Assembly (NCBI GenBank): GCA_025964465.1 | Contig: JAOPYS010000244.1 | Coordinates: 1-46,896, forward strand | Length of the DNA stretch: 46,896 nt | Source of the DNA: Thermoleophilia bacterium | GTDB lineage: Bacteria > Actinomycetota > Thermoleophilia > Gaiellales > SKUG01 | Direction: 5' to 3' | Part shown: piece by piece, positions 26,817 through 44,144 of the stretch | Layout of the letters: the number at the start of each line of letters is the position of its first letter | Position numbering within the stretch: the stretch's first letter is position 1 | Program-made: the position numbers and the translations under genes | The notes under the pieces: model-generated | Told to the model about the DNA's origin: nothing | The model's input: only the letters and a program-made list of their open reading frames with translations | Database searches by the model: none

Positions 26817-27193
26817 GCCGCCGCCCGACCGTGATCCATGAGCCACAGCGCATGGTTGAAGGCGTCGCGACCAGCCGGCGTCATCGTGTAGACCGACAGG
26901 CGATTCGTCAGCACCTCGTCGGTGAGCGGAACCTCGGTCAGCTCGACCATCGCCGACGTGATGATGCCGGCGTGCACGAACTTCCAGAAACGCCGACCGA
27001 TGATGTCCTCGTGCACGCCCTCGCGTGCGGCGAGCGAGCGGAGCGAGGCTGATCCGCCCATGATCTCGAGCGAGTCGAGCGCGTCGAACTCGGCGGTGGT
27101 GAGCCGCCCGATTCGCTGACGGCCCCCCTTCCAGTCGTCGTCGCGCTTCGTGATGTGGACGATGGGGTGTCGTGTGATGCGGGGCGTTTTCAT
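26813..27193 (-). CDS. winged-helix (MarR/PadR-like) phage protein
   Basis: 'SLRSLAAREGVHEDIIGRRFWKFVHAGIITS..YTMTPAGRDAF'. ATGA overlap at 27190-27193. Confidence 0.5.
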   Translation of the reverse strand: MKTPRITRHPIVHITKRDDDWKGGRQRIGRLTTAEFDALDSLEIMGGSASLRSLAAREGVHEDIIGRRFWKFVHAGIITSAMVELTEVPLTDEVLTNRLSVYTMTPAGRDAFNHALWLMDHGRAAA

Positions 27194-30012: not shown

Positions 30013-30060
30013 GCTGACGCTCCTCTCGGGAGATCGAGGCTTCGAACAGGGGAATGGAGG

Positions 30061-30102
30061 GCGGCGCCGGCGGCCCGAAGGGGGATCCGCCGCCGGCGCC
30101 GC
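30061..30102. other. GC-rich 13-bp stem-loop between recT and the replication gene
   Basis: GCGGCGCCGGCGG pairs with CCGCCGGCGCCGC across a 16-nt loop. Confidence 0.5.
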
Positions 30103-30104
30103 TA

Positions 30105-31196: not shown

Positions 31197-31238
31197 GGGC
31201 GATCTCCGGGGTGCTGAGGGTTGGGGCGAGGACGGGGG

Positions 31239-32198
31239 TTAGAGGAAGGGGTACGCGTCGGCGGCCGCAGCCACCTCGGACTCCTTGATGACGCGGCGCA
31301 ACTCGCCGCCGAGCGCCTTGCGATGCGCGTACACCCCGAACAGCGCCGCGAAGACGCGGAAGTCGGCGCGGTACTCGCGAGCGGTGCGCGTGATCGTGCT
31401 GACCGGGCGCCCGTCCTTGTGGCACCACACCACGGCGGTGCCGCTGATCGTCACGCCGATCTCCTCGCGCAGCGCCTTCGCGTACGCGGCGAGCTGGAGC
31501 ACGTGCTCGAGGTACACCGAGTTGCTCGTCTTGATATCGAGCACGAGCAGGCGGCCACGGGCGTCACGCACGAGCAGGTCGAACCGGCCCGCGTAGCGCG
31601 CGTGGTTGTCCACGACGATGCGCTCTACCTCGACCACCGTGTAGCCCGTGGAGCGCCACCACGTGACGTACGCCTCACACGGCCCGCGCAGCTCGGGGTC
31701 ATCGGGCAGGGGCGTATCGAGGATGTCGGCGCCCGCCGTCGTGATCCAGTCGTGCACGCGCGTGCCGATGTCGGCAGCCTCGTCCTTCGCGTTCTTGTGC
31801 GCGTCCTGCGCCAGCTGGCAGACGAGCGCGAACTCGGACGCGGGGATCACGGCTGCGAGGTCGAGGCGCTCGGCGCCGCGGCGCTGGAGCTCCTCCGCGA
31901 CCGCGTCGGCGGCCATGCGGGCTGCCCAGTGCACGAGGGCGGGCTTGTTCAGCTCCGACAGGATCGTGCTGACGGCGGGCACGCGCTCGAACTTCGCGCC
32001 CTCGCCCTTGCAGGCGGTGCACTTCTTCGTCGTGCCGGGTCGCACGCCGGGGATCGTGCCGGTCTCGAGGCACGTCGCGCACTCGTAGCGCAGGCGGTAG
32101 CTGTGGTCGCTGTCGCGGTACACGACGCGCGTGACGGGGTGCACGGGCGTCGCGACGGTAGGGGCGGGCGGGGCTGGGGCGATGGCGAGGGCGGTCAT
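31239..32198 (-). CDS. PD-(D/E)XK exonuclease (Cas4/RecB-like fold), RecT partner
   Basis: 'GRFDLLV....LLVLDIKTS' gives D..(D/E)xK, with 'QLAAYA' downstream. N-terminal CATC..CTAC zinc-ribbon-like pair. Confidence 0.7.
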   Translation of the reverse strand: MTALAIAPAPPAPTVATPVHPVTRVVYRDSDHSYRLRYECATCLETGTIPGVRPGTTKKCTACKGEGAKFERVPAVSTILSELNKPALVHWAARMAADAVAEELQRRGAERLDLAAVIPASEFALVCQLAQDAHKNAKDEAADIGTRVHDWITTAGADILDTPLPDDPELRGPCEAYVTWWRSTGYTVVEVERIVVDNHARYAGRFDLLVRDARGRLLVLDIKTSNSVYLEHVLQLAAYAKALREEIGVTISGTAVVWCHKDGRPVSTITRTAREYRADFRVFAALFGVYAHRKALGGELRRVIKESEVAAAADAYPFL

Positions 32199-32223
32199 GT
32201 GATCGGGCTCCTGGGGCGAGGGG

Positions 32224-32427
32224 TCAGGCGGCGGGCGGCAGTGAGCCGTCGTCGTCGTGGTCGAGGACGCAGCACGGACCCGCGCCGCTGGTGGTGAGGA
32301 GGGCGGGGTGCCACTTCTCGCCGCAGCACCAGCAGGACTCGGCGAACGGCACGACGACGTTCTGCGGCGCGCGGGCGATGGTTGGCACGGCGGGCAGCGG
32401 CCGCAGTGGGCGGGGGGCGTACGTCAT
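32224..32427 (-). CDS. small Cys-rich phage protein
   Basis: 67 aa, GC3-rich. ATGA overlap with the upstream cro-like gene (32424-32427). Confidence 0.5.
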   Translation of the reverse strand: MTYAPRPLRPLPAVPTIARAPQNVVVPFAESCWCCGEKWHPALLTTSGAGPCCVLDHDDDGSLPPAA

Positions 32428-32717
32428 GCGGCCAGACCAACGGCCGCGAGGTCGACCTCGACCGGCTCACCGATCAGGGTCCGGGGATCCATGCCCGCGA
32501 ACTTCACCAGCTTGCAGAGCGTCACCCAGTCGGGGCGCTTCGGCTTCGCCTTCTTCTCGTCCTCGGCCTCGGGGTCGGGGATGACTTCGAGCGCTCGGAT
32601 GGTGGCCGGGTCGAGGCGGCATAGCCGGGCGAACTTCGCGTGGGAGAGGCCGAGCTCGGCGCGTCGCTGTCGGATCGCGGCGGCGGAATCGGGGTCTGGG
32701 TTGGGGGCAACTGTCAC
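32424..32717 (-). CDS. XRE-family HTH protein (Cro-like early regulator)
   Basis: 'IRQRRAELGLSHAKFARLCRLDPATIRALE'. GTG 32717 has GAAGGA 7 nt upstream and was chosen inside listed ORF 32424..33119. Confidence 0.7.
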   Translation of the reverse strand: MTVAPNPDPDSAAAIRQRRAELGLSHAKFARLCRLDPATIRALEVIPDPEAEDEKKAKPKRPDWVTLCKLVKFAGMDPRTLIGEPVEVDLAAVGLAA

Positions 32718-32828: not shown

Positions 32829-33200
32829 ATGAACGGGTCTATGCCGATGACCGACAACGTTCAGTCGCCCGTACACGGCGACCGCATCCACGCCCTGCGG
32901 GTCGCCCAATCCAGCGACGCTCGCCCGAAGTGGGCCGCGCTCCACGACATCTCGGATGCGACGCTGGCGCGGGCCGAGCGGTCCGATCCGCGTGTGACCG
33001 CCCGGTCGCTGCGCAAGATCGCGGCGGCGCTCGGCGTTCACCTCAGCGAGATCTACACCGATGCGCCCGACGACCTCGGGGGCACCCCGGGCGGACCGCC
33101 TGCGTGGTTCTCGTCGCACTGGGAGCAGCTCGAGGCGCGGTTGGCAGACATCGAGCGGCAGAACGCCGAGCTGCTCCGCGAGCTAAGGAAGCGACGATGA
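32829..33200 (+). CDS. XRE-family HTH repressor (CI-like, no S24 peptidase domain)
   Basis: 'WAALHDISDATLARAERSDPRVTARSLRKIAAALGV' HTH with a C-terminal coiled coil 'WEQLEARLADIERQNAELLRELRK'. Confidence 0.7.
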   Translation: MNGSMPMTDNVQSPVHGDRIHALRVAQSSDARPKWAALHDISDATLARAERSDPRVTARSLRKIAAALGVHLSEIYTDAPDDLGGTPGGPPAWFSSHWEQLEARLADIERQNAELLRELRKRR

Positions 33201-33982
33201 TCCGCGCAGCACTCGCACTACTCGTCGCGACGATCGGGGTCGCGGTCAGCGCCCCGACGATCGCGGCTGCTGAGCCGGCGATGCCCACCACGCCGGGTGG
33301 TTTCGTGACGATCCTGAACCACCCGGTACTGTCGTGGACCCTGCCCGCCGGCGCCACGCTCGAGTACCTTCGCGTCTCCACCAGCGCGACGGTCGACGGT
33401 GACGGTCGCCTCGTCGGCCCAGGCCTGTCGATCGTCACCCCCACCGAGTTGGACCCGCTGTGCTGGGTGGGCGACGACGAATACTGCGACGAGGAGTCGG
33501 TGGTGACGATCCCGCCGACAGACACGTCATCATGGGACCCGAGGCGCAACATCCAGTTTCCTGGCGCCCACTTCTGGCAGGTCGAGACGAGCAGCATCGG
33601 CGATGCCGGGCAGGTCGTCCGCGAGTTCAGTCGCCCCCGCCGGTTCGTCGTCCGCCGCAACTTCCAGAAGCCGCGGCTCCCGAATCGGCTGAGCGGGACC
33701 GACGACGGATCCGTCGTGTCGCTCGAGCTCCCCTTCTCGATTGCCACCAACACGCGGTTCACGCCAGTTACGCTGGTGGCTCGGCATGCCGGCAAGGTCG
33801 CCTGCAAGCGCACCCACCTGCTTCGCAAGGTCGACGCGTACCCCACGACCTCCTACACCGCCTACTGCGACTTCGGGCGAGCCCTGCGCGGGCGAACAGT
33901 GTCGTACCGCCTCACGATTGGCTCCAAGGCGTCGACAGGCTTCGCGTGGATCGCCAACGGCGAGTTCACCCTGCCGACCTAA
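33197..33982 (+). CDS. secreted protein of unknown function, translationally coupled to the repressor
   Basis: ATGA overlap at 33197-33200. Signal peptide 'MIRAALALLVATIGVAVSAPTIAAA'. Beta-rich mature part with no recognisable domain. Confidence 0.65.
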   Translation: MIRAALALLVATIGVAVSAPTIAAAEPAMPTTPGGFVTILNHPVLSWTLPAGATLEYLRVSTSATVDGDGRLVGPGLSIVTPTELDPLCWVGDDEYCDEESVVTIPPTDTSSWDPRRNIQFPGAHFWQVETSSIGDAGQVVREFSRPRRFVVRRNFQKPRLPNRLSGTDDGSVVSLELPFSIATNTRFTPVTLVARHAGKVACKRTHLLRKVDAYPTTSYTAYCDFGRALRGRTVSYRLTIGSKASTGFAWIANGEFTLPT

Positions 33983-34272
33983 CCGGCGAATCCCGGCCGG
34001 AGCCCATCCTCCAACTCGCCGGCCGCGCTCACCGCCGCGTCCCCGGCGGCGCGGATCCGGAGCGCGGCCCACGCGGCCCCGCCACGCACGCGGCGGAGTT
34101 CGTCCTCGAGCTCGACGATCCGCGCGGTGCGTTCGGCGACGACCGCGCAGCAGCGATGGCACGCATCGACGCAGTCCTCGTGCCTCACCGTCGTCGCTCC
34201 CAGTTCGTTCCCTGCAACGTATTCGCCCAATATCTGATGATTCCTCGCACGTGCTTGCCATCGAACGAACAT
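33979..34272 (-). CDS. hypothetical small coiled-coil protein
   Basis: ATG 34272 lies inside listed ORF 33979..34428. The distal two-thirds has high GC3 and the first ~25 codons are AT-rich. Its stop overlaps the stop of the convergent gene. Confidence 0.45.
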   Translation of the reverse strand: MFVRWQARARNHQILGEYVAGNELGATTVRHEDCVDACHRCCAVVAERTARIVELEDELRRVRGGAAWAALRIRAAGDAAVSAAGELEDGLRPGFAG

Positions 34273-34350
34273 CGTCTCGGCGAGCAGCACACGACAGTCG
34301 TCGAGCAGGACGACGCCTCGACCATCACTCGATCGAGGAGCAACACCACC

Positions 34351-34755
34351 ATGGCGCACTACAGCCTCAACGGCCTCCGCTACACCGCCACGCAGCAGCC
34401 CAACGGCAGCGTGCAGATCCAGACGCACCAGGACGCGAGCATGAAGCTGCTCACCAGCGCCGTGATCCCACCGGAGGCGCTCCCGACGATCGTCGGCGTG
34501 CTCACCGACGCGAAGGCCGCGGCCGCTGCAACCGTCGAGCGCGAAGCCGCCGAGGCCGCGATCGACCTCGTTGAGCGCGCCGTCGAGCAGGGCGACGCGA
34601 AGCCCGTGCCCGCCGAGGCGCAGTCATCTCCGGTCGCGTCGCTGCCGGAGCGGCCCGCGGATGGCGCGACCGTGACGCACATCGTCGACGGCGCGAAGGA
34701 CCGGCCCGCCGGCGCACCGCGCCGCGCGCGCCCCGCTCCGACGAAGGCGAAGTAG
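34351..34755 (+). CDS. hypothetical protein
   Basis: ATG 34351 has a GAGGAG upstream (34335-34340). 134 aa with an Ala/Glu-rich middle and a basic tail. Confidence 0.55.
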   Translation: MAHYSLNGLRYTATQQPNGSVQIQTHQDASMKLLTSAVIPPEALPTIVGVLTDAKAAAAATVEREAAEAAIDLVERAVEQGDAKPVPAEAQSSPVASLPERPADGATVTHIVDGAKDRPAGAPRRARPAPTKAK

Positions 34756-34866: not shown

Positions 34867-35592
34867 TCAGCGCGTGACGCGCACCACTCGGTCGACAAGC
34901 GTGAGCGGGCGGATGCGCTCGAACACGCCATCCGCGCCGTTGCCGTCGCTGACCGCGCCACCCGAGCTGGTGTTGCCCTCGATGGTGTGCACGTGCGTTG
35001 CCACCCGCCCGGGCGCGGGGTCGCCGTGCTGGTTGCAGTAGCCCACGAGCAGGCCCGTGTGGTCGAACGTGAACGCCACGATGTCGCCCGCGAGCCCCGC
35101 GCGCTTCGACCCCAGCACGTACATGCCGGCGAGGCGTCCGAGGTTGCGCACGGCGGCCCAGGCGCGCGTGACCGCCTTCGACCCGGCGGCGAGGTAGGCG
35201 GCGGCGTCCGTGTCGGCGCACCACGGCTCGCCCGGCACGCCGCCGTTCGCGCGGATGATGCGCTCCACCTCGGGCCCGCGGTTGTTGCCGCCCTGCTCGC
35301 GCACGTCGAGCCACTTCCGAAACTCGGTGAGCGCCCGCAACCGGAGGGGCATGCGCTTCCACTGGATCGCGTCGTCGTACAGCTGGACGGCCTTCTCAGC
35401 CACCGCGACGCTCTGCTGCTGCCGCGATACCAGCTTCGGCTTCTCCGACGGAGTGAGCTTCGTGCGCGGCGTCCAGCTAGTGAGCGTCCCACGCGTCCTC
35501 GCCAGCGCGCGCCGACGAGCCGCGAGCCGCACCACCCACTTCGCGCGGTTCGCCTGCAGCGTGACGAGCGACTGGTCGCGGAGCGCCTTCAC
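34867..35592 (-). CDS. CHAP/NlpC-P60-type peptidoglycan hydrolase (endolysin)
   Basis: 'GGNNRGPEVERII..GEPWCADT' (catalytic Cys), 'GDIVAFTFDHTGLLVG' (His) and 'HTIEGNTS'. GTG 35592 overlaps the upstream stop (GTGA). Confidence 0.75.
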   Translation of the reverse strand: MKALRDQSLVTLQANRAKWVVRLAARRRALARTRGTLTSWTPRTKLTPSEKPKLVSRQQQSVAVAEKAVQLYDDAIQWKRMPLRLRALTEFRKWLDVREQGGNNRGPEVERIIRANGGVPGEPWCADTDAAAYLAAGSKAVTRAWAAVRNLGRLAGMYVLGSKRAGLAGDIVAFTFDHTGLLVGYCNQHGDPAPGRVATHVHTIEGNTSSGGAVSDGNGADGVFERIRPLTLVDRVVRVTR

Positions 35593-36095
35593 GAGAACAC
35601 GCCCAGCGCCAGCAGCACGCCGTCGACGATGACGACCATGACGGCGGCGATCGCGACGATGCCGAGCCAGTCGCCCCGCACCGCACCTTCCTCGCGCGGC
35701 GGGAGCGGCGTGACGCCCCGCGGCGGGCCGCCGAACAGCGGCGTCGTGTTCACGACCGTCGTCGGCGCCGCCTCCCTCACCGCCTCCAGCAGACCCGAGC
35801 GGCGAGCATCCGCAGCCATCACGGCACCGCGCCCAGCCACAGCCTCCTTGCGCAGCAGGTACCGCCCGATGGTCACGAGCGCCGGAAGGCCGATCGCCCC
35901 GGCCACGACGGCGATCCGATCGAGGGTGCGATCCCACAGCCACGGAGGCGCAGCGAGGGCGAAGATGACGACGGTGAGCGCGACGGCGTACGCGATGAGA
36001 GCGTCCGGATCGCGGCGGATGTGCTTGACGGCGAGCGGGTCCACGAGGGCCTCCACGTTCGGGGGTACGTGGTGGCGGCGTCCGCGAGGTGTCAC
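35589..36095 (-). CDS. 3-TM membrane protein, holin-like by position
   Basis: Hydrophobic helices ALIAYAVALTVVIFALAA, IAVVAGAIGLPALVTIG and WLGIVAIAAVMVVIVDGVLLALGV. Lies immediately upstream of the endolysin. Confidence 0.55.
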   Translation of the reverse strand: MTPRGRRHHVPPNVEALVDPLAVKHIRRDPDALIAYAVALTVVIFALAAPPWLWDRTLDRIAVVAGAIGLPALVTIGRYLLRKEAVAGRGAVMAADARRSGLLEAVREAAPTTVVNTTPLFGGPPRGVTPLPPREEGAVRGDWLGIVAIAAVMVVIVDGVLLALGVFS

Positions 36096-36289
36096 AACTT
36101 CGTGACGATCCCGCGCGCAGGGTTGCGCGGCGCCAGCGCGACGCGCACCATCACGGCATGGACGATCACGACCGCCCCAATCGCACCGAGCTCGCCGGCG
36201 CCGCCCTGCTCGGCCTGCTCCTCGCGGGCGCCGTGCTCACGGCCGCCTGGCGCGTGCTGGCGTAGAAGACGAAACGGCCGGAGGCGCAA
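36092..36289 (-). CDS. tentative small single-TM protein
   Basis: GC3 is about 90% in this frame. Its stop overlaps GTG 36095 (GTGA). TTG 36289 lies 5 nt after GGAGG, and the start sits in the loop of the 36273-36306 hairpin. Confidence 0.35.
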   Translation of the reverse strand: MRLRPFRLLRQHAPGGREHGAREEQAEQGGAGELGAIGAVVIVHAVMVRVALAPRNPARGIVTKL

Positions 36290-36306
36290 CACGCCCTCCG
36301 GCCGTT
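36273..36306 (-). terminator. strong stem-loop, likely late-operon terminator/attenuator
   Basis: Perfect 12-bp stem AACGGCCGGAGG / CCTCCGGCCGTT with a 10-nt loop. On the minus strand it is followed by TTCGTCTTCT. Confidence 0.55.
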
Positions 36307-36639: not shown

Positions 36640-36780
36640 ATGAGCCTGAACCAGCCGCCGGGGGCATCCCGGCACTTCGAGCCGATCGACCAGCCAGTGC
36701 ACATCTACGCGCCCTCGGGACGCGTGATGTGGACAGTGATGCCGCCGGGTGACCGCCCGGTGATCATCATGGCTCGCTGA
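36640..36780 (+). CDS. 46-aa mini-protein on the opposite strand to all flanking late genes
   Basis: AAAGGAG lies 6 nt before ATG 36640. GC3 is about 87%. Sequence MSLNQPPGASRHFEPIDQPVHIYAPSGRVMWTVMPPGDRPVIIMAR. It is below the ORF-track size cutoff. Confidence 0.5.
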   Translation: MSLNQPPGASRHFEPIDQPVHIYAPSGRVMWTVMPPGDRPVIIMAR

Positions 36781-36948: not shown

Positions 36949-37242
36949 TCATCCCGAAACGGAATCCGCTCCGGCGAGCGCATCCTCACCAGCCGCTCGC
37001 GCCCGCCGCGGCACCAGGTAGAACGCGCCATCCGCGAGCTCGTCGATCGCCTCCGACTCCAGCGCCACCTCGTCACGGTGCCACGTGCGGTCGCCGTACT
37101 CCGCGAGGCCGATGCTCGACACGCGCAGGATCGTGCGCCGGCGGATCTCCGGGCGCCGTGCGAGCAGCAGCGCCGCGAGGTCGTCGAGGGCCGCGTCGAC
37201 GTGCTGCTCGACCATGCGCATCTGCTCGGTGGCTTCGATCAT
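36949..37242 (-). CDS. small acidic protein, last gene of the 4-gene accessory operon
   Basis: ATG 37242 overlaps the stop of the phosphoesterase gene (ATGA 37239-37242). 97 aa, D/E-rich. Confidence 0.55.
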   Translation of the reverse strand: MIEATEQMRMVEQHVDAALDDLAALLLARRPEIRRRTILRVSSIGLAEYGDRTWHRDEVALESEAIDELADGAFYLVPRRARAAGEDALAGADSVSG

Positions 37243-38618
37243 GCTGCCCCGTCCAGCGCGGCGAGGAGTTTCGCCGCCGGCTGGTCCGATTCCATCGCGC
37301 CCCACGCGTACCGGCTCTTGCCCGCGCCGATCGACGTGAGGTCGATGGGGTGCTGCGCGATCAGGTCGTGATCGGGGTGCACCGCCTCGACGAGGAACTG
37401 CGGGGGGCCGTATTTCCCGAGGCTGTCGAGCACGAACGAGTCGACGCCCTTCGGCGACGGGCACAGACCGATGTCCGCCGCGCCAGCGACCCAGTAGAAC
37501 AGCGTGTGGAAGTGGCCGTAGCGACTGTGGCGCACCACGCTGTTGATGGACTCGGCCGCGAGCTGCGCGAGCACCAGGCTCCACTCCCGCGTCGCGTCGT
37601 GCTGCTTCTTCAAGCCGTACGCGGGGATGCCGAGCGACCCACCCCCGCCGCGCGCCGCGTCGCCATGCGAGAACGCCCACCGGCTCGGGCCGATCTGCGT
37701 GGTGATGGTGTACCCCTGCGCGAGCTCGAAGCTGATGTTCGGGATCTTCGACACGAGCGCCGCCGTCATCTCGTGGACGAGCGACTCCCACGACGTCTGC
37801 TGGCGGCTGCTACCCGTCGGCATGCGGTGTGCCTGCGTGCGCGGATGGTTGCCCGTCGTGCCGATGTACCGCACGCGCTTGAATCGGGACGCGAGCTCCG
37901 TGAGGATCTGCGCCTGCACCATCGAGAAGTCGACGGTTTGCTTGCCGGCGCGTGCGTAGTACTCGGCGCTGTCCGGGTGGATGCTGCCGCCGATGCCGTC
38001 GCCGTTCTCGACGTACACGATCTCGTCGACGCCGTGCTCCGCCTCGTAGTTGTCGGCGATCCGCATGATCGTGTCGACCGTGTGCTGCAGCCGCATCGCG
38101 GCGATGTCGGGGCTGTACGCGTTGATGCCCTGGATGGTGCGCGCCTCGACGATCTCGCCCCAGTGGATGTCGGTGGCGTGCCACACCAGCGTCAACGGCT
38201 TGCGGCGCCCTCGGCGCCGCTCCGGGAGGGGCTTCGGTGGGGGCAGTGCGAGGCCGGTGAGCGCGGGCGCCATGAGGTCGCGGATGTCCTCGAGGAGGTT
38301 CTCGCGCTTCGCGAGGTGCTTCACCTCGACGCGCAGGCTGCGCAGTTCCGCATCCTTGCGGTCGATCGCGCGACGCATCGTGACGAGCTCTGCCGGCTCG
38401 ACCTCGCGGACGACCGGAGTGACCGATGGGTCGGCGTCTCCGCCGCCCGGGGTGCAGCGGTGGCCGGACCGGAGTTCGTGCTTCCGGGACCATGTCTGGA
38501 GGGTGTTGCGAGCGACGCCCGTGGCGGCGGCTACGCGGTTCAGGCTTCCGTGCTTCGTCAGTGCTTCGGCGAGGGCGTCCTTGTCCCAGTACCACTGCCG
38601 TGCGCGGGTGTCAGCCAT
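37239..38618 (-). CDS. HTH + coiled-coil + calcineurin-like metallophosphoesterase
   Basis: ATG 38618 (GGAGA upstream) lies inside listed ORF 37239..38993. HTH 'GSLNRVAAATGVARNTLQTWSRKH'. MPP motifs in order: 'ATDIHWG' (DxH), 'ENGDGIGG' (GD), 'TTGNHPR' (GNH), 'FSHGD' and 'YGHFHT' (GHxH). Confidence 0.7.
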   Translation of the reverse strand: MADTRARQWYWDKDALAEALTKHGSLNRVAAATGVARNTLQTWSRKHELRSGHRCTPGGGDADPSVTPVVREVEPAELVTMRRAIDRKDAELRSLRVEVKHLAKRENLLEDIRDLMAPALTGLALPPPKPLPERRRGRRKPLTLVWHATDIHWGEIVEARTIQGINAYSPDIAAMRLQHTVDTIMRIADNYEAEHGVDEIVYVENGDGIGGSIHPDSAEYYARAGKQTVDFSMVQAQILTELASRFKRVRYIGTTGNHPRTQAHRMPTGSSRQQTSWESLVHEMTAALVSKIPNISFELAQGYTITTQIGPSRWAFSHGDAARGGGGSLGIPAYGLKKQHDATREWSLVLAQLAAESINSVVRHSRYGHFHTLFYWVAGAADIGLCPSPKGVDSFVLDSLGKYGPPQFLVEAVHPDHDLIAQHPIDLTSIGAGKSRYAWGAMESDQPAAKLLAALDGAA

Positions 38619-39063
38619 CCGTCTCCGATGTGGGGGGTGGATCGGTAGCCCTTCGCGGGGCGCGCGGCATCGGCACCGGCACCACCGCGGGGATCGCCGG
38701 CGCGACGTTGCGCAGCTCGTCGATGCGTCCCTGCAGCTCGCGCGCCATCGCCTCCGACGCGACGCGCGCGTCGTGCTCGATCTCGTAGCGCGCCTGCCAC
38801 GCCGCCGCCTCACGCTCTGCCTGGCCACGCTCCCCGCGGAGCGCGTCCATCTCGAGTTCCATCTCGCGTTGCTTCGTCTCGAGATCCTCGATGCGCTGCA
38901 AGAGCTGCGCGTTGAAGCCGACGGCGTTGTCGACGAGATCCCCGCGGCGCACGGTGCGCTCGTTCCGGCTGGCACGCAGCGCGGCGCGCACACCGAGCAG
39001 CGTCAGGAGCATGGTGAGGAACATCCCCGCCGTCGTCAGCATCGTGGTGATGACGGCGCTCAC
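38611..39063 (-). CDS. single-TM, coiled-coil membrane protein
   Basis: GTG 39063 overlaps the upstream stop (GTGA). TM 'VITTMLTTAGMFLTMLLTLLGV', then heptad-like 'LLQRIEDLETKQREMELEMDALRGERGQAEREAAAWQARYE'. It overlaps the next gene by 8 nt. Confidence 0.6.
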   Translation of the reverse strand: MSAVITTMLTTAGMFLTMLLTLLGVRAALRASRNERTVRRGDLVDNAVGFNAQLLQRIEDLETKQREMELEMDALRGERGQAEREAAAWQARYEIEHDARVASEAMARELQGRIDELRNVAPAIPAVVPVPMPRAPRRATDPPPTSETDG

Positions 39064-39479
39064 CGCGGCGCCCCGCGCAGGTACGGGTACCGGCTCAGCT
39101 CGATCAGCAGCAGCCCAACGGCGGCGTACACGAGCGGTGTGCCCAGCAGCGACGACCAACCGAGCGGGATCGGCGCGGTGACCGGCTCGACGCCGAGCGC
39201 CGTGGCGACGACGCGCGCGACGAACCCGAGGCTGTGCACGATCCACGCGACGCCCGCGAGGACGTACCCGACGCGCTCGAACTCCTCGCCGTGCTTGAGG
39301 GTGCCGATGGCGGCGAGGATGGCGCCGGTGAGCATGACGATGCCGATGGCGTCGTCGACGCGGCCGACGCCGAGGCTGCCGTAGTAGCTGTAGAACGGGG
39401 AGAGGTCGCGGACGAAGGCGAAGTCGAACCCGACCCACGCGCTTGCCAGAATGACCGATCGACGCACCACGCGCCCCAC
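39060..39479 (-). CDS. 4-TM small membrane protein
   Basis: 139 aa with four hydrophobic helices. GTG 39479 lies 29 nt downstream of the minor tail gene stop. Confidence 0.6.
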   Translation of the reverse strand: MGRVVRRSVILASAWVGFDFAFVRDLSPFYSYYGSLGVGRVDDAIGIVMLTGAILAAIGTLKHGEEFERVGYVLAGVAWIVHSLGFVARVVATALGVEPVTAPIPLGWSSLLGTPLVYAAVGLLLIELSRYPYLRGAPR

Positions 39480-39508: not shown

Positions 39509-41581
39509 TCAGCGCGTCGCGGCCGACAGTCGGGCGCGGACGACGCTGATGAAGTCCTGGGGGTCGTCGATGCCGATCTCGACGGTGTCAGTCGCCTCGG
39601 TGTACTTGGCGGTGCGGATGATGCCCTGCCGCCCGAACGCGCCCGTGTTCGGGTCCTGCAGATTCTCGATCAGCAGCGAGTCGAGCACGCGCGCTGGGAG
39701 GGCGCTGACCGCGATCGAGCCGCCTCCCTTCGTGCGGATGCGGCCGGTGACCGAGATGGTGCCCTTGAACGGGGGGAACTGCGCGGCGTCGAGTTCCAGC
39801 TGCGCGACCTGGAGGGCGGCGGCGGCGGTGCTGCGTCCGTCCATCGCCTTCAGTGCGGTGCGCCGCATGCCGCGGCGGTCGACTACCGTCGCGGCCCCCT
39901 CGTACAGCTCGACGTCGTCCATGTAAAGCACGACGCCCGCGAATCCCGACCCGCCGGGCAGCAGACAGTCGAGGGAGAGCTTCACCTCGCCGCCAACCGC
40001 GGTAGTGATGGGCACGTCCACGGTCACCCAGGTGTTCACGGGCGCGGCGTCGACGATCGGCCCGATGTTGTAGCCCGCGGCGCCCGAGGTGGTGTTGATC
40101 GTCGTGACGGTGGTTCCGAGCGCGCCGCGCACGATGAGTTGCCCGATCGCGGTGGTGCGGTAGAGACGCAGACGAACGGTCTTCTTCGCTTCGCTCTGGC
40201 CGGTGAGGATGGTGGGGCTGATGAAGCCGAAGGTGCCGAACGCGGTGGATAGCTGCGCGGAGTACGAGCCGGTGAACGCGACGGTCGTGGATGCCGCGAT
40301 CGATCCGCTCGTGGCCGTCCAGCCGGCGGTCACGCCTCCCTCGAACGATCCGGTGTTGAACTGGAATCGCGATGCGATGTACGGGTTCTCGGCGGTGGCG
40401 TACGATCGGACGCCTGCCGCGTCCTCGAACTCGCTGATGACGCGACTGAACACCGAGCGCCCGTCCTGCGCCGCTGGCTCTGCGAGGCGGTACTCCTCGG
40501 CGCCGACGACGAAGCTGTAGTCGCTGTCGAGCGGACCGAACTCGGCCACCGGCACTGGGTCGGGGGAGAGGCGGAAGCCGTAGCCGTGGTAGGCGTTCGC
40601 CGCGTCGATCAGCTCATTGCCGTATCGCCAGCCCGGGCTTCCGGGGAAGTTGGGGATGCCGAACGTGGTCGCCTGGATCTTGGAGCGGTCGCTGCTGATG
40701 TTGGGGCACACCGCAGCGAGTACGTCACTGATGACGGTGGGGGCCTTGAGGATCGACAGGTCGCCTGATTCGTCCGCGGCGTTCGTGAACACCTTGAGGC
40801 TGGTGATCTTGAACCACACGTCGGCGCCCGGTGTGTAGCCGGCCGTGGTGTACATGTAGATGTGCACGTAACGCGTCGCCGGCGATGTCGTCCACCGCAA
40901 CGTCCCCGACGCGGCGGCGCTATTCAGGACCGACGTGCCCGTGCCGGACCCGGTCCCGTACAGGTCCGCGTTCGAGTAGCCCTGCATGTACAAGCCCTGA
41001 TTCGCCGTGTTGGCGCTGCTTTCGTAGGTGGCGACGAACCGTGTCGCAAGGTTGTTCGGCCCGAGGTCGAGCGTCACACACGCAGCGCCGCCCGTAGTGA
41101 GCGGTGATCCGCTGGGCGACATGAGCGTCACGGACCCCTCGCCGACGTTCACCTGGGCCCCCGCGTAGCATTTGGCGAGCCCCAGCTGCGCGCTCGGGAT
41201 GGACCGCTGATCCACCAGCCGCGACAGGTCCGCGATCACCCACTCGCGATCGGTGCAGTCGTCCTTCGTGTGCTGCCCCCACCCCTGGCACTGCACCACG
41301 ACCTCCGCGTCCTCCGCGAACGTCGTCGGCACCGCGATGATGCGCCCGCTCCAGCGGTCGTCGTTGCCGTCCTTGATGACGACGGGGGTGAACTGCTCGA
41401 GGATCGCGCGCGGCCACCGCGGGTTGAGCTTCAACCGGAACGACGCCGACAGGCACCCGTACTCCGACGCGTCGCCATCGAACTCGATCGAGCAGGGCAC
41501 GACGCCGTACCCGCCGTCCTGCTGTGTGCCGAGCTTGACCCATCCCGCATCGCGGGGCTGTAGTTCCACGGAGAGCGACAT
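39509..41581 (-). CDS. minor tail protein (Tal-like by position) with C-terminal carbohydrate-binding-like module
   Basis: ATG 41581 lies inside listed ORF 39509..41779. It is the second gene after the tape measure. 'FEGGVTAGWTATSGSIAAS..FTGSYSAQL' resembles CBM4/9-type modules of phage tail proteins. Confidence 0.65.
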   Translation of the reverse strand: MSLSVELQPRDAGWVKLGTQQDGGYGVVPCSIEFDGDASEYGCLSASFRLKLNPRWPRAILEQFTPVVIKDGNDDRWSGRIIAVPTTFAEDAEVVVQCQGWGQHTKDDCTDREWVIADLSRLVDQRSIPSAQLGLAKCYAGAQVNVGEGSVTLMSPSGSPLTTGGAACVTLDLGPNNLATRFVATYESSANTANQGLYMQGYSNADLYGTGSGTGTSVLNSAAASGTLRWTTSPATRYVHIYMYTTAGYTPGADVWFKITSLKVFTNAADESGDLSILKAPTVISDVLAAVCPNISSDRSKIQATTFGIPNFPGSPGWRYGNELIDAANAYHGYGFRLSPDPVPVAEFGPLDSDYSFVVGAEEYRLAEPAAQDGRSVFSRVISEFEDAAGVRSYATAENPYIASRFQFNTGSFEGGVTAGWTATSGSIAASTTVAFTGSYSAQLSTAFGTFGFISPTILTGQSEAKKTVRLRLYRTTAIGQLIVRGALGTTVTTINTTSGAAGYNIGPIVDAAPVNTWVTVDVPITTAVGGEVKLSLDCLLPGGSGFAGVVLYMDDVELYEGAATVVDRRGMRRTALKAMDGRSTAAAALQVAQLELDAAQFPPFKGTISVTGRIRTKGGGSIAVSALPARVLDSLLIENLQDPNTGAFGRQGIIRTAKYTEATDTVEIGIDDPQDFISVVRARLSAATR

Positions 41582-41600: not shown

Positions 41601-44144
41601 CTACGATTGGCGTAGCAGGTGCACGCGCGGCTCGATCGCGACCTGCACGCATGCCGCGTACGTCTTCGCGCTGCTCGCGGTCGAGGCGTCAGTGAGGTCG
41701 ACGACGACATCGCCCGGCCACACGAGCAGCTCGGCGCCGTCCGGAGGGATGCGGAGCGGCTCGCCGCCCAAGCCATCATCGGGGGTCTGCGCTCGCGTCC
41801 CCGGCTCGATGATGGCGCCGCTCAGGTCGGAGCGGATGAGCTTCGTGGTCTCTGCCGCTGACACGATGAACTTCGGGACGATGCTCGCGCTCGACCCCGA
41901 GCGGCTGCGTGCGATGGAGCGCGCGGGCACGAGCACGATGTGATCGAGGGCGAAGGAGTTGGTCGCCGATCCGCTGTTGGTGAACCCGAGACGCAACCAT
42001 TCGCGCCGTGGGCGCGCGCGGTCGACTTTCAAGGTAATCGTCCCCAGGTAGTACTGCCGAAACCCAGCCGCGGTGGGCAGCTTGAGCGTCTTGCCCGCTG
42101 CCCGGAAGTTGCCGTAGCGCCGTGCGCCGTAGTTGGTGCCTCGCTCGGGCGCGATGCTCAGGGCGCAGGCAAGGCCGGTCTGTGTGGTGTCCGCGTACAC
42201 CCGCCCGAAGATGGCGACGTCGACCTCGTCGCGCGTGTAGTCGTCGGGCGTGAACAAGTGCGGCAGGATCGGCAGCTCCATGTTCGCGTTCGCGCCCGCA
42301 GCGCCCGACACGAAGAACGAGGTGCCCAACAGGTAGACGGCGTTGGTGCCCGTCGATGCCCACGCCGTGCCGGTCAGGGAGGCCGCCGCGGTGTTCATGG
42401 CCGCGCCGGGGATGATGCCGGGCCCGAACCCGCCGAGGTCGCTGGCGGGGGCCGTGGTGCCCTCGTAGACCTGCACGTCGTCGAACTGGAAGGTGGTCGC
42501 CGTCGCGGCGGCTGTGACGATCGCGACGTAGGCGAGGTCGGTGTCGGCCGTCGGCGTCCACGTGACGGAGACCGGCGTCCATGCGGTCGACAGCGCGGTG
42601 GCTGTGCTCAGGTTGGACGAGGTCGCGTTGCCGAGCAGCACGTACATGAGGGTGGTGCTCGCAGCCGAGCGCATGCGCGCCTTCGCCGTGTAGGTCACGC
42701 CCTTTCGGAACCCGCCACGACGGTAGATCGGGAAGTTGGGGCCGCTCGATCCGGTCGCCGGGGTGACGGCCTCGAAGCTCGCCGTGCCGGCGTAGATGGC
42801 GGCCGTTTGGCGAACCACGCTGGTCGCCGCGTTGGTGACACTGGTGATACCGGCGGGCGTCCACCCGTACGCGGTGGTGGTGACCGCGCCGACGACCTCC
42901 GCCGCACCGTTCCAGACGTAGTTGTGAGCCGGCAAGCGCGGCCACCACGCGTACAACATCACCAGCGCCGTGTTCGTCCCCGTGTACGAGATCGCCGCGT
43001 AGGCATCCACCGTGCCGCCCGGTACATTCCCCAGGCGCAGCACGTCCGGGAACGCTCGGATCCCGTATGTGCACGCCGCCGCGCGGAAGTCGTCCAGCGC
43101 CGCCGCGGACTGCTGCGGCGCCCACACGAACCCCACCCGTCCGCGGATCCCCGCGCCGAACAGGGCGGCGTCCGCCGTCGAGAGGGTCGCGCCCCCCGCT
43201 GCAGTCGGCAGGCCCATCGGCGTCGGCTCCGACGTCCACAGTTCCGCGAACAGCACGTTGCCCTCGATGCGGCCCAGCACCCAGTACGTCGTCCCCGTTG
43301 CGAGCCGCGTGCTCAGTGGCACGCTCGAGAGATTCGTCACCACGCCCGCGACGACCTTGTCGATCCGCAGCCGGCTGGTAGTGCCGTTGTCGTCGACGTA
43401 GCTCGTGATGTAGTTCGACGCGTCCAGGCGCGTGTGGATCACGCCCGCCTTGTACGCGCTGATCGTCGACCCGAGCGTGTGCTTCACCACCACCTGCACG
43501 TCGCCCAGCAGGTTCGAGTTGCCGGTGTGGATCACGTGATTCTCGGTCGTGACGTTCGCCGCCGCCGTCACCACCCCGCCCACCACGGCCATGTTCGTCA
43601 ACGCGCCCGCGTCCGCCGTCCAATCCGACCCGCCGCGGTTGAAGCGACCCGCCGTCGTCATCGTCGCGAATGAGAAGTCGTCGAAGATGTCGAGCGGGTC
43701 CGCGAACCCGTACGGATCCACCACCAACGACACCGAGAACCGCGCGCGATCGAACCGCTCGTACTCCGCCAGATCCACCGGGCTGCGCTTCGCCGCCGCC
43801 ACCCGGAACGTCGTCATGTACGACGCGCCCTCCGACCGGTACCGCAACACCCCGCCGCCCTGCGTGGTGATGTCGTCCAGCACGCGGTCGAGCGCATCCA
43901 GGCGCGTCTGCAGCTGCGTGAGGCTCGACGCCGTAATGATGAGCGCGAACTGCTGCTCACGCGCATCCTTCGGCGCGCCCGTGACCGTCACACGCTCCCC
44001 GTCGAACGTCTGCGAGTACATCGGACGCTCCACGGGGTGCCCGAGGCTCGAACCATCCCCCAGCACGCTGCAGCCGATGGTCGCGTCGAGCGCCTGCACA
44101 CGCCCGCTGTAGTTCGCTTCGAGCTCGACGAGTAGGGATCCCAT
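41601..44144 (-). CDS. large minor tail protein (Dit position) with LamG/CBM-like insertions
   Basis: 847-aa gene directly after the tape measure. Internal 'YGWTPAG..ASFEAVTP..' and 'FQFDDVQVYEG' are CBM-like strands. Confidence 0.6.
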   Translation of the reverse strand: MGSLLVELEANYSGRVQALDATIGCSVLGDGSSLGHPVERPMYSQTFDGERVTVTGAPKDAREQQFALIITASSLTQLQTRLDALDRVLDDITTQGGGVLRYRSEGASYMTTFRVAAAKRSPVDLAEYERFDRARFSVSLVVDPYGFADPLDIFDDFSFATMTTAGRFNRGGSDWTADAGALTNMAVVGGVVTAAANVTTENHVIHTGNSNLLGDVQVVVKHTLGSTISAYKAGVIHTRLDASNYITSYVDDNGTTSRLRIDKVVAGVVTNLSSVPLSTRLATGTTYWVLGRIEGNVLFAELWTSEPTPMGLPTAAGGATLSTADAALFGAGIRGRVGFVWAPQQSAAALDDFRAAACTYGIRAFPDVLRLGNVPGGTVDAYAAISYTGTNTALVMLYAWWPRLPAHNYVWNGAAEVVGAVTTTAYGWTPAGITSVTNAATSVVRQTAAIYAGTASFEAVTPATGSSGPNFPIYRRGGFRKGVTYTAKARMRSAASTTLMYVLLGNATSSNLSTATALSTAWTPVSVTWTPTADTDLAYVAIVTAAATATTFQFDDVQVYEGTTAPASDLGGFGPGIIPGAAMNTAAASLTGTAWASTGTNAVYLLGTSFFVSGAAGANANMELPILPHLFTPDDYTRDEVDVAIFGRVYADTTQTGLACALSIAPERGTNYGARRYGNFRAAGKTLKLPTAAGFRQYYLGTITLKVDRARPRREWLRLGFTNSGSATNSFALDHIVLVPARSIARSRSGSSASIVPKFIVSAAETTKLIRSDLSGAIIEPGTRAQTPDDGLGGEPLRIPPDGAELLVWPGDVVVDLTDASTASSAKTYAACVQVAIEPRVHLLRQS

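What the first reader, a model, noticed from the sequence alone, without database searches (positions are those of the whole stretch)
36949..39479. Coupled 4-gene operon (4-TM protein, TM/coiled-coil protein, HTH-metallophosphoesterase, small acidic protein) between tail and lysis genes: candidate uncharacterised prophage defence or exclusion module
**Seen:**
- Four minus-strand genes follow the last tail gene after a 29-nt gap.
- They are chained by start/stop overlaps: GTGA at 39060-39063, an 8-nt overlap at 38611-38618, and ATGA at 37239-37242.
- The third protein joins an N-terminal HTH, a heptad-like segment and a complete metallophosphoesterase motif set (DxH, GD, GNH, H, GHxH). It therefore looks catalytically competent and DNA-directed.
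- The operon is separated from the lysis cassette by about 850 bp of mostly non-coding DNA with hairpins.

**Established:** The tail-to-lysis junction of temperate siphoviruses is a recurrent insertion point for morons and anti-phage cargo. Mre11/SbcD-type phosphoesterases act as nucleases.

**Inference:** Two small membrane proteins plus a DNA-binding phosphoesterase and a small acidic partner (possible inhibitor or antitoxin) suggest a membrane-sensor/nuclease-effector system. It is analogous in architecture only to Kiwa or Zorya. I cannot match it to any named system from memory.
Basis: partly seen in the sequence, partly recalled or inferred. Interest (0 to 1): 0.78.

Follow-up and report, generated by a model that had tools for sequence, protein, structure and literature searches.

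The report
Phage HTH-phosphoesterase with small acidic partner
The four genes are real, but only two of them (a DNA-binding metallophosphoesterase and a small acidic protein) travel together, as an accessory pair found only in phage-like DNA, so this looks like a phage nuclease module of unknown role rather than a four-part bacterial defence system.

Summary
**Observation:** confirmed. Four tightly coupled minus-strand genes lie between the tail genes and the lysis genes of a prophage in a Thermoleophilia MAG contig. The "non-coding" gap, however, holds two small opposite-strand ORFs.

**What is conserved:**
- Only g3 (HTH, long helix, metallophosphoesterase = MPE) and g4 (97 aa, acidic, three helices) form a recurring pair.
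- g1 has no detectable homologue. g2 has only architectural analogues.
- g3 belongs to PHROG 284 ("exonuclease"; SPbeta YonJ-like). All metal-binding motifs are invariant in 42 homologues.
- No protein matches any PADLOC defence model.

**Where the pair sits:** always in phage-like contexts, at module boundaries. It is found next to lysis genes, before the immunity/early region, or between TerS and TerL.

**Domain swap:** two syntenic relatives keep the HTH and g4 but carry a different MPE domain. That domain is PHROG 221, the family of the mycobacteriophage cluster A MPEs, to which the published DNA-degrading counter-defence enzyme Gp48 is reported to belong.

**Best reading (about 0.45):** a late-expressed, DNA-directed phage nuclease with a cognate modulator. 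The four-gene sensor/effector defence reading is not supported, but a conflict role is not excluded. Interest is modest.

The parts
39060..39479 (-). g1: 139-aa membrane protein with 3-4 hydrophobic segments. ORFan. Not part of the conserved module.
   Evidence: GC3 frame signal. Hydropathy. Only itself found among 5.8 billion proteins. Absent from the related loci tested by tblastn.
38611..39063 (-). g2: 150-aa protein with an N-terminal TM, a coiled coil and a Pro-rich tail. Lineage-specific. Proteins of the same architecture but no detectable sequence similarity occupy the same slot in L026 (154 aa) and L020 (97 aa, TM at the C-terminus).
   Evidence: TM and coiled-coil-type weak hits. (no IMG/VR relative). 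(singleton cluster). (analogous proteins, BLASTP not significant).
37239..38618 (-). g3: 459-aa HTH / long-helix / metallophosphoesterase protein, a PHROG 284 family member.
   Evidence: PHROG 284 E = 5e-39 over aa 78-428. 42 homologues with invariant metal-binding motifs. AF2 pLDDT 82.7. Foldseek finds generic MPE folds in PDB and full-length matches to 400-480-aa phage proteins in BFVD.
38481..38582 (-). g3 aa 13-46: three-helix HTH of the transposase / homeodomain-like type.
   Evidence: AF2 helices 13-23, 26-33 and 37-46 at pLDDT about 93-95. Weak Pfam HTH_Tnp_1, HTH_17 and MerR_1 hits. Homologues carry precomputed HTH_23, HTH_28, HTH_8 and HTH_50 hits. This segment is 48% identical to the N-terminus of the L020 protein, whose catalytic domain differs.
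38253..38396 (-). g3 aa 75-122: single long helix, a probable dimerisation coiled coil.
   Evidence: AF2 secondary structure. Coiled-coil-type PDB profile hits.
37341..38195 (-). g3 aa 142-426: metallophosphoesterase sandwich with D150xH152, G206D207, G256N257H258, H318 and H369FH371, plus the family-specific GGGG 324-327 loop.
36949..37242 (-). g4: 97-aa acidic (pI 4.7) three-helix protein with the motifs G..EYGD..[WF]H and EELADA.FY. The conserved partner of HTH-MPE genes.
   Evidence: Adjacent to the MPE gene in the window, L001, L003, L005, L010 (weak), L011, L020 and L026. 133 representative clusters. AF2 pLDDT 93. No Pfam, PDB or Foldseek match.
36640..36780 (+). 46-aa ORF antisense to the operon, with a strong Shine-Dalgarno sequence. 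About 34% identical counterparts lie in the syntenic gaps of L020 and L026.
36089..36265 (+). 58-aa antisense ORF with a C-terminal TM, followed by a perfect 12-bp hairpin at 36273-36306. A small hydrophobic antisense ORF lies at the same place in L020.
35589..36056 (-). 155-aa 3-TM protein overlapping the endolysin start. Probable holin. Homologue in L026.
34867..35592 (-). Endolysin.
   Evidence: PHROG 21825 and 21357 'endolysin'. 53% identical homologue in L021.
39509..41581 (-). Last large late-region protein upstream of g1 (presumed tail or receptor-binding). 42-45% identical homologues precede the MPE module in L020 and L026.
   Evidence: No family hit of its own.

Best explanation
**The unit.** The functional unit is a two-gene phage accessory module, not a four-gene system.
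- g3 is a homodimer-type enzyme (inferred from the 48-residue helix). An N-terminal HTH places a binuclear-metal phosphodiesterase domain on DNA.
- g4 is a small acidic three-helix protein that acts with g3. It is most plausibly a stoichiometric modulator or inhibitor that binds the conserved N-terminal part.

**Expression (inferred).** The pair is transcribed with the late genes: same strand, 29 nt after the upstream late gene, translationally coupled.

**Action (inferred).** It works for the phage during lytic growth. Most likely it cuts DNA that is not destined for packaging, such as host chromosome or competing DNA. This is host takeover or counter-defence in the manner of mycobacteriophage Gp48.

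**g1 and g2 (inferred).** They are lineage-specific membrane proteins of the late/lysis region and not partners of the enzyme.

**Shown:**
- gene structure;
- family membership (PHROG 284);
- motif invariance;
- the MPE fold;
- g3-g4 co-occurrence;
- exchange of the catalytic domain between two MPE families with the HTH and g4 retained.

**Inferred:**
- DNA as substrate;
- dimerisation;
- the role of g4;
- timing of expression;
- the biological purpose.
For: **Family and fold**
- PHROG 284 'exonuclease' E = 5e-39.
- Metal-binding motifs are invariant in 42 homologues.
- The fold is MPE, with SbcD, Mre11 and PolD-DP1 among the best PDB matches.
- The full-length HTH+MPE architecture is shared with many phage proteins. 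The A1 profile matches both the HTH and the MPE parts of the remote homologues L013, L017 and L019.

**g4 linkage**
- g4 is adjacent to the MPE gene in 7 of 10 distinct close-clade loci. The order varies, and the junction is often an ATGA-type overlap.

**Catalytic-domain exchange**
- L020 and L026 are syntenic with the window: tail proteins are 42-48% identical and g4 is 41-72% identical.
- L020 keeps the HTH at 48% identity over the first 60-80 aa, and L026 at 37% over 49 aa.
- Both carry a PHROG 221 MPE domain instead of PHROG 284.
- PHROG 221 is the family of the mycobacteriophage cluster A MPEs (Benedict gp52, E = 1.5e-114).
- A cluster A member, A10ZJ24 Gp48, is reported to be a phosphodiesterase that degrades host DNA, is toxic, and is needed to overcome host defences (PMC12287305).

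**Phage-only contexts**
- All 13 distinct close-clade contexts are phage-like, at module boundaries.
- There are no PADLOC hits.
- There are no relatives in 185,579 representative genomes by pattern-seeded scan.
Against: - No activity, substrate or expression data exist for this family. The 'exonuclease' label in PHROG is an annotation, not a test.
- Pfam Metallophos models do not score g3 at all. PDB fold matches are weak (E about 1e-3), so no specific MPE subfamily, nuclease or otherwise, can be assigned.
- Gp48 is an early gene without an HTH. It belongs to the other MPE family, and I did not score Gp48 itself against PHROG 221.
- Late expression is inferred from gene order only.
- g4 relatives also occur without an adjacent MPE. 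One example lies in a bacterial housekeeping neighbourhood.
- Three close-clade loci lack a detectable g4 (L002, L008, L012).
- The position next to TerS/TerL in L001-L003, SPbeta and phiCD211 would fit a packaging role equally well.
Confidence: 0.45

Rival explanations
1. DNA maturation, recombination or packaging nuclease. The HTH-MPE would process phage DNA itself: branches, hairpins or ends of concatemers. It would be an SbcD/Mre11-like or HNH-like accessory to the terminase, with g4 as a cofactor.
For: - In L001 the order is TerS-like (PHROG 4102), g4, MPE, a 125-aa protein, TerL, portal.
- L002 and L003 also place it just upstream of TerL and portal.
- SPbeta-type YonJ and the phiCD211 homologue lie one to four genes upstream of the terminase.
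- In L005 it follows RusA and an HNH gene.
- S-CBS1 and Dagobah homologues sit among exonuclease, RusA and endonuclease VII genes.
- SbcD, Mre11 and PolD-DP1 are among the best fold matches.
- The HTH is of the transposase/TerS-like kind.
Against: - In the window and at least eight other distinct loci the gene is not near the terminase. It lies beside lysis genes or before the immunity/early region.
- There is no SbcC/Rad50-type ATPase partner and no capping domain in the model.
- The window phage already has a PD-(D/E)XK exonuclease plus RecT pair.
- A core packaging function would not be expected to move around or be absent from related phages.
- hhalign of the HTH with the L001 TerS-like protein is not significant.
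Confidence: 0.25
2. The four genes form a prophage-encoded defence or superinfection-exclusion system. The membrane proteins g1/g2 sense infection, g3 degrades incoming DNA, and g4 keeps g3 inactive.
For: - The four genes are tightly coupled.
- The MPE is catalytically competent.
- The position is variable, at module boundaries, typical of accessory cargo.
- A protein with a TM and a coiled coil occupies the slot before the MPE gene in all three syntenic prophage-like loci (window, L020, L026).
- Exchange of the catalytic domain, with targeting domain and small partner retained, resembles effector swapping in conflict systems.
Against: - There are no significant PADLOC hits.
- g1 is an ORFan.
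- g2-like proteins share no detectable sequence. They are absent from most loci that have g3+g4.
- Similar coiled-coil+TM proteins sit next to endolysins in L010 and L020, which suggests holin-type roles.
- The family occurs in many unrelated phage groups.
- The genes are co-oriented with the late operon and 29 nt from it, with no room for an independent promoter.
- No relatives were found in cellular, non-phage contexts.
Confidence: 0.12
3. Selfish toxin/immunity or addiction-type pair that spreads between phage genomes. g3 would be a toxic nuclease and g4 its antidote, with little benefit to phage or host.
For: - A two-gene cassette with start/stop overlap, found in otherwise unrelated phage backbones at different boundaries.
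- The acidic small partner has pI 4.7, and the family median is 4.9.
- Gene order is variable.
- The Gp48-family MPE is reported to be toxic when expressed (PMC12287305).
Against: - Three close-clade loci have g3 without a detectable g4, which a toxin could not tolerate.
- g3 is large and strongly conserved over its whole length, including a DNA-targeting domain.
- There are no TA-family hits in Pfam or PADLOC.
Confidence: 0.1
4. The substrate is not DNA. g3 would hydrolyse a nucleotide second messenger, a phosphoprotein or a phosphodiester-linked cell-wall polymer. This would mean an anti-signalling role, or a lysis-accessory role given the lysis-cassette neighbourhood.
For: - The MPE superfamily includes cyclic-nucleotide phosphodiesterases and protein phosphatases (general knowledge).
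- The top PDB fold hit is acid sphingomyelinase, a phosphodiesterase.
- In nine distinct loci the gene lies within a few kb of, or right next to, an endolysin gene.
Against: - The conserved HTH points to nucleic acid.
- There is no signal peptide or TM segment.
- The PPP-family motifs GDxxDRG and GNHE are not present; g3 has GDGIGG and GNHP.
- Adjacency to lysis genes is equally explained by both lying at the end of the late operon.
Confidence: 0.08

Closest known systems
PHROG 284 phage 'exonuclease' proteins (Bacillus SPbeta YonJ-type, phiCD211 'exonuclease', S-CBS1 'DNA repair exonuclease', proteins often mis-annotated 'DNA polymerase II small subunit')
   Same: - Significant profile match over the whole catalytic domain.
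- Same HTH + helix + MPE architecture and size (400-480 aa) by fold comparison.
- Phage-only distribution.
- Function not determined experimentally as far as I could find.
   Different: - The window protein belongs to a divergent, metagenome-only clade. It is at most 28% identical to any protein in 50,697 deposited phage genomes.
- It is not scored by Pfam Metallophos models.
- In this clade it is usually paired with the g4 protein, which was not detected next to the remote members.
Mycobacteriophage cluster A metallophosphoesterase (A10ZJ24 Gp48; Benedict gp52; PHROG 221)
   Same: - Phage-encoded MPE with all five motifs.
- In the syntenic relatives L020 and L026, a PHROG 221 domain replaces the PHROG 284 domain behind the same HTH and next to the same g4 partner. 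The two appear interchangeable in this module.
- Gp48 is a phosphodiesterase reported to degrade host DNA and counter host defences (PMC12287305).
   Different: - g3 itself does not match PHROG 221.
- Cluster A MPEs are about 250 aa and lack the HTH and long helix.
- They are early genes of the right arm next to primase and a sigma-like gene.
- They have no g4 neighbour.
SbcD / Mre11 nucleases and the PolD small subunit DP1
   Same: Calcineurin-like fold and metal-ligand motifs. They are among the best PDB fold matches.
   Different: - Matches are weak (E about 2e-3 to 5e-3, TM 0.25-0.35).
- There is no capping domain.
- There is no SbcC/Rad50 or PolD large-subunit partner nearby.
- There is no sequence-level similarity to any PDB chain.
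   Same: Only the loose idea of membrane proteins encoded next to a cytoplasmic effector.
   Different: - No PADLOC model of any system matches g1, g3 or g4 at E <= 1. g2 gives only sub-significant LmuB hits.
- The membrane proteins are not conserved with the effector.

Membership tests
Calcineurin-like metallophosphoesterase superfamily | Five metal-binding motifs (DxH, GD, GNH, H, GHxH or HxH) on a beta-sandwich fold | tested here: met
   - Motifs D150xH152, G206D207, G256N257H258, H318 and H369FH371 are invariant in 42 homologues.
- The top Foldseek PDB hits are all MPE-fold proteins at probability 0.82-1.0.
- Pfam Metallophos models themselves do not score the protein.
PHROG 284 (phage 'exonuclease', YonJ-like) | Significant match to the family profile over most of its length | tested here: met
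   - E = 5e-39, protein aa 78-428 against profile positions 68-395 of 398.
- A SPbeta-type YonJ homologue scores 5.4e-79 against the same profile.
PHROG 221 (cluster A mycobacteriophage MPE, the reported family of Gp48) | Significant match to the family profile | tested here: not met
   - g3 hits only PHROG 284 and 704.
- The positional counterpart in L020 scores 3e-23 against PHROG 221.
- The L026 counterpart is 62% identical to the L020 protein.
- Benedict gp52 scores 1.5e-114 against PHROG 221.
SbcCD / Mre11-Rad50 nuclease complexes | An adjacent SMC-like ABC ATPase partner (SbcC/Rad50) | tested here: not met
   - No ATPase is encoded in 34.8-41.6 kb.
- g2 is a 150-aa TM/coiled-coil protein with only sub-significant LmuB hits.
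SbcCD / Mre11-Rad50 nuclease complexes | A capping domain C-terminal to the phosphoesterase core | tested here: not met
   The AF2 model ends about 30 residues after the last core strand, with only one short helix.
PPP-type Ser/Thr phosphatases (lambda phosphatase) | GDxxDRG and GNHE signature motifs | tested here: not met
   g3 has GDGIGG and GNHP at the corresponding positions.
Known anti-phage defence systems (PADLOC-DB v2.0.0, including Kiwa, Zorya, Lamassu) | A match of the component proteins to the system's models | tested here: not met
   - There are no hits at E <= 1 for g1, g3 and g4.
- g2 gives only LmuB hits at E = 0.005-0.04, which I attribute to coiled-coil composition.
- Neighbours and homologues are also negative.
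- DefenseFinder and newer model sets were not available.
Four-gene operon as one conserved system | Co-occurrence of all four genes in related loci | tested here: not met
   - g3+g4 co-occur in 7 of 10 distinct close-clade loci.
- g1 homologues occur in none.
- g2 has only architectural analogues, in L020 and L026.
MazG-like all-alpha NTP pyrophosphohydrolases (considered for g4) | Profile or fold match to MazG, PRA-PH or DUF550 | tested here: not met
   - One of 60 family members gave PRA-PH at E = 0.055.
- There is no PDB profile hit.
- There is no Foldseek PDB hit for a pLDDT-93 model.
Toxin-antitoxin pair | Toxicity of g3 neutralised by g4 | not testable with these tools
   This needs expression experiments. 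There are no TA-family hits in Pfam or PADLOC.

The most novel reading that the evidence does not exclude
HTH-MPE plus g4 is a previously undescribed two-gene phage conflict module.
- A DNA-targeted nuclease effector has a catalytic domain that can be exchanged between MPE families.
- A dedicated small acidic inhibitor holds it in check.
- The module serves either to exclude competing phages or mobile elements from the infected or lysogenic cell, or to destroy host DNA and defences.
- The conserved antisense micro-ORFs in the adjacent gap could be part of its control.
Probability: 0.25. Interest if true: 0.6.

Novelty: new variant of a known kind. Interest (0 to 1): 0.35.

Why it matters
- PHROG 284 is a large phage protein family, spread from Bacillus SPbeta to Bacteroides, cyanobacterial and actinobacterial phages. 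I found no experimentally assigned function for it.
- Three observations give concrete, testable handles on it:
  - one clade carries a dedicated small partner;
  - the catalytic domain can be replaced by a domain of PHROG 221, the family of the cluster A mycobacteriophage MPEs to which the DNA-degrading Gp48 is reported to belong;
  - the gene sits at late-operon boundaries.
- If the pair proves to be a nuclease-inhibitor conflict module, it would add a new effector type to phage-host or phage-phage warfare.
- If it is a DNA-processing enzyme, it is ordinary phage housekeeping.
- For this scan, the main value is a correction: this is not a four-component membrane-sensor defence system.

Tried and rejected
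1. **Pfam on the four proteins.** Only weak HTH and coiled-coil hits, and no Metallophos hit.
2. **PADLOC.** Nothing significant on the four proteins, the neighbours or the homologues.
3. **PDB sequence searches.** The single-sequence and profile searches for g3, and the profile search for g4, gave no informative hit.
4. **g4 as a MazG/DUF550-like pyrophosphohydrolase.** The idea came from the EYGDxxW and EELADA motifs. It was not supported by Pfam, the PDB profile or Foldseek.
5. **g3's HTH as a TerS HTH.** hhalign against the L001 TerS-like protein was not significant.
6. **Relatives in GTDB representative genomes.** None for the g3 clade or g4's close clade.
7. **Homologues of g1 and g2.**
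   - g1 matched only itself.
   - g2 found none in IMG/VR.
   - g2 against its positional analogue in L026 showed no significant similarity.
8. **The 892-nt gap.**
   - Rfam found no credible RNA family.
   - There are no tRNAs in the window.
   - There are no sigma-70-type promoters, and only one chance-level terminator-like site.
   - There is no DNA-level conservation of the gap with L020.
9. **Literature on YonJ or the family's function.** Nothing functional.
10. **A small acidic neighbour next to remote PHROG 284 genes.** Acidic small ORFs are common there, but none is recognisably g4-like.
11. **The window's own protein in the contig index.** Not on record.

Full report
**1. What the window is**

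The 46,896-bp window is a complete MAG contig of a Thermoleophilia bacterium; its proteins carry JWM98 locus tags.

A GC3-based gene call gives this layout:
- Mixed-strand, host-like genes from 1 to about 23 kb.
- A prophage from about 23.2 kb that runs off the contig end.

Reading the minus strand from the contig end, the prophage contains:
- a tape-measure protein (44160-46889; PHROG tape-measure hits);
- two large late-region proteins (41601-44099, with a weak, below-cutoff CBM_4_9 match, and 39509-41581);
- the four genes of the finding;
- an 892-nt gap;
- a 3-TM protein (35589-36056) overlapping an endolysin (34867-35592; PHROG endolysin).

Next come three plus-strand genes headed by a cI-like HTH (32841-33200). 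A cro-like HTH gene lies opposite it (32424-32717).

After that come a PD-(D/E)XK exonuclease and a RecT and further early genes. The prophage ends with a tyrosine integrase (23164-24021; PHROG 1).

**2.
- The four ORFs, the 29-nt gap after the upstream gene, GTGA (39060-39063), the 8-nt overlap (38611-38618) and ATGA (37239-37242) are all as described.
- The GC3 frame plot supports each frame.
- g1 has 3-4 hydrophobic segments. g2 has one N-terminal TM plus coiled-coil-type weak hits. g4 has pI 4.7.
- The AF2 model of g3 (pLDDT 82.7) shows an HTH at aa 13-46, one long helix at aa 75-122 and an alpha/beta sandwich at aa 142-426.
- DxH, GD, GNH, H and HxH are present and invariant in 42 homologues.

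One correction is needed. The gap is not simply non-coding. It holds a 46-aa plus-strand ORF with an AAAGGAG Shine-Dalgarno sequence (36640-36780; NCBI gene JWM98_1815). It also holds a 58-aa plus-strand ORF with a C-terminal TM (36089-36265), followed by a perfect 12-bp hairpin.

**3. What g3 is**
- Pfam does not recognise the catalytic domain, and no PDB sequence matches it.
- PHROG 284 ("exonuclease") matches at 5e-39 over the whole domain.
- Foldseek against PDB gives only generic MPE folds at E about 1e-3: acid sphingomyelinase, Vps29, PolD DP1, Mre11 and SbcD.
- Foldseek against BFVD gives 41 hits below 1e-3. Many align over 410-480 columns to 400-480-aa phage proteins. Examples are the Bacillus BSP38 "metallophosphatase", a Lactobacillus LfeInf protein and several "DNA polymerase II small subunit" annotations.
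- tblastn with a remote member finds the family in Bacteroides, Phocaeicola and Parabacteroides phages, cyanophages, SPbeta-like and phiCD211-like phages, Ralstonia RSP15, Streptomyces Dagobah and others.

The HTH+helix+MPE architecture is therefore the norm of a widespread, phage-restricted family. I found no experimental function for it.

**4. What travels with g3**

Of the close clade (42 proteins at 39-100% identity, apart from the window's own MAG protein all from unnamed metagenome assemblies), I fetched 13 distinct genomic contexts.
- g4 is adjacent to the MPE gene in seven loci:
  - downstream in the window, L005 and L020;
  - upstream in L001, L003, L011 and (weakly) L010.
- L026 adds another downstream case.
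- g4 is not detected in L002, L008 or L012, nor beside remote PHROG 284 members.
- g1 has no homologue anywhere. g2 has none in IMG/VR or in the loci tested by tblastn.
- The rest of the window prophage shares almost nothing with most of these loci. The g3-g4 pair therefore moves between phage backbones.

**5. Where the pair sits**

Always in phage-like DNA, and always at a module boundary.

| Position | Loci |
|---|---|
| Between tail and lysis genes | window, L020, L026 |
| Directly after endolysin/holin genes and before the cI/cro or early region | L008/9, L029/30, L011/28, L032 |
| Last gene before a cro-like gene, a few kb after the lysin | L012/39; L010/31 also lies a few kb after the lysin |
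| Between a TerS-like gene and TerL/portal | L001, L003; L002 similar |
| After RusA and an HNH gene | L005 |

Remote members vary as well:
- They lie one to four genes upstream of TerL in SPbeta-like and phiCD211 phages.
- One lies between an injection protein and the lysin in a podovirus.
- They lie among recombination genes in S-CBS1 and Dagobah.

**6. The most informative result: a catalytic-domain swap**

L020 and L026 are syntenic with the window. Their tail proteins are 42-48% identical, g4 is 41-72% identical, and a gap with antisense micro-ORFs follows, then a holin-like gene.

In both, the protein in the g3 slot matches g3 only at the N-terminal HTH. That match is 48% identity over 60-80 aa in L020 and 37% over 49 aa in L026. 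The remainder is a canonical MPE with the motifs DAH, GDMLD, GNHD and GHDH. The L020 protein scores PHROG 221, not PHROG 284. The L026 protein is 62% identical to the L020 protein.

PHROG 221 is the cluster A mycobacteriophage MPE family (Benedict gp52, E = 1.5e-114; tblastn). A cluster A member, A10ZJ24 Gp48, is reported to be a phosphodiesterase that breaks down host genomic DNA. It is also reported to be toxic and to be required to overcome host defences in M. tuberculosis (PMC12287305). I did not score Gp48 itself against PHROG 221.

Two different MPE lineages are thus used interchangeably behind the same HTH and beside the same small partner. This argues that MPE chemistry on a DNA-associated substrate is the point of the module. 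It also argues that g4 works with the conserved N-terminal part or in the same pathway.

**7. g4**
- The family has 133 representative clusters at E <= 1e-3 in 1.84 billion proteins. Most members are 85-110 aa and acidic (median pI 4.9).
- Near-invariant motifs are G..EYGD..[WF]H and EELADA.FY.
- The AF2 model is a confident three-helix protein (pLDDT 93).
- Pfam, the PDB profile and Foldseek PDB give nothing, so my MazG-like idea is rejected.
- One relative lies alone among bacterial housekeeping genes. The family is therefore not strictly tied to MPE genes.

**8. Against the defence reading**
- No PADLOC model matches g1, g3 or g4 at E <= 1. g2 gives only sub-significant LmuB hits. Neighbours and homologues give only generic HTH or coiled-coil-type hits.
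- The four genes are not a conserved unit.
- The family occurs in many unrelated phage groups.
- The genes are co-directional with the late operon and 29 nt from it.
- Pattern-seeded scans of 185,579 representative genomes found no relative.
- Proteins with a coiled coil plus a TM, like g2, sit next to endolysins in L010 and L020. A holin or lysis-accessory role for g1/g2 is therefore at least as likely as a sensor role.

What remains in favour of a conflict role:
- the accessory, boundary-hopping behaviour;
- the small acidic partner;
- the catalytic-domain swap.

**9. Verdict**

The finding is a real, tightly coupled gene cluster. Its conserved core is a two-gene phage module: a PHROG 284 HTH-MPE plus a new small partner family.

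My estimates for what it does:

| Reading | Confidence |
|---|---|
| Late-expressed, DNA-directed nuclease working for the phage, with g4 as modulator | about 0.45 |
| Packaging, recombination or repair role | about 0.25 |
| Selfish toxin/immunity pair | about 0.10 |
| Non-DNA substrate | about 0.08 |

It is a new variant of a known kind and of modest interest.

Noticed in passing
window 36640-36780 (+) and 36089-36265 (+); L020 10343-11095; L026 3240-4140: The gap after g4 holds two small ORFs antisense to the late operon. One is 46 aa with a strong Shine-Dalgarno sequence (NCBI JWM98_1815). The other is 58 aa, basic, with a C-terminal TM. Syntenic gaps in L020 and L026 also carry antisense micro-ORFs. 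The 46-aa one is about 34% identical in all three (core G[RK]V.[WT]T[VT]M.P). They could be a lysogeny-expressed moron or a small toxin/regulator pair. L021 lacks the gap altogether.
   Followed up: partly
window 36273-36306: A perfect 12-bp inverted repeat with a 10-nt loop lies immediately after the 58-aa plus-strand ORF. It is a candidate bidirectional terminator between the late operon's end and the lysis genes.
   Followed up: no
window 32841-34755 (+): A cI-like HTH gene (32841-33200) is followed on the same strand by two ORFans (33305-33982, 225 aa; 34255-34755, 166 aa). This is the position of rexAB in lambda, so these are better-placed candidates for lysogen-expressed exclusion genes than g1-g4. 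There are no PHROG, Pfam or PADLOC hits. The 166-aa protein has weak homologues at the same place in L020 and L021.
   Followed up: partly
L022 (Benedict gp51/gp52), L025 (S-CBS1 gp27/gp28), L024 (phiCD211), L018 (SPbeta-like): Remote MPE genes of PHROG 221 and 284 repeatedly lie next to, or a few genes from, phage-encoded sigma factors or the YonO RNA polymerase and HU genes. This may hint at a link with the transcription switch, or may only reflect position at an early/late boundary.
   Followed up: no
L001 4153-8355: In this roughly 34-kb phage contig the g4-MPE pair is inserted between a TerS-like gene (PHROG 4102) and TerL (PHROG 2). That arrangement is otherwise typical of HNH endonucleases in cos phages or of homing-type insertions.
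   Followed up: partly
protein P0052 (JGI sample 3300048101, 38-kb contig; no DNA held): A g4-family protein (E = 3e-15) lies alone between bacterial housekeeping genes (IMPDH, GMP synthase, peroxiredoxin) with no MPE gene nearby. The small-protein family is therefore not restricted to the phage module.
   Followed up: no
window 39060-39479: g1 is a true ORFan by the word-index search: only its own MAG entry was found among 5.8 billion proteins. It nevertheless has a strong coding signal (GC3 up to 0.97).
   Followed up: yes
window 23164-32717: The early region of the prophage has a RecE-like PD-(D/E)XK nuclease (31239-32144), a RecT (30105-31196), a RusA-like gene (25174-25587, homologous to L005 RusA) and a terminal tyrosine integrase (23164-24021). 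No tRNA gene was found anywhere in the window, so the attachment site is not at a tRNA within this contig.
   Followed up: partly
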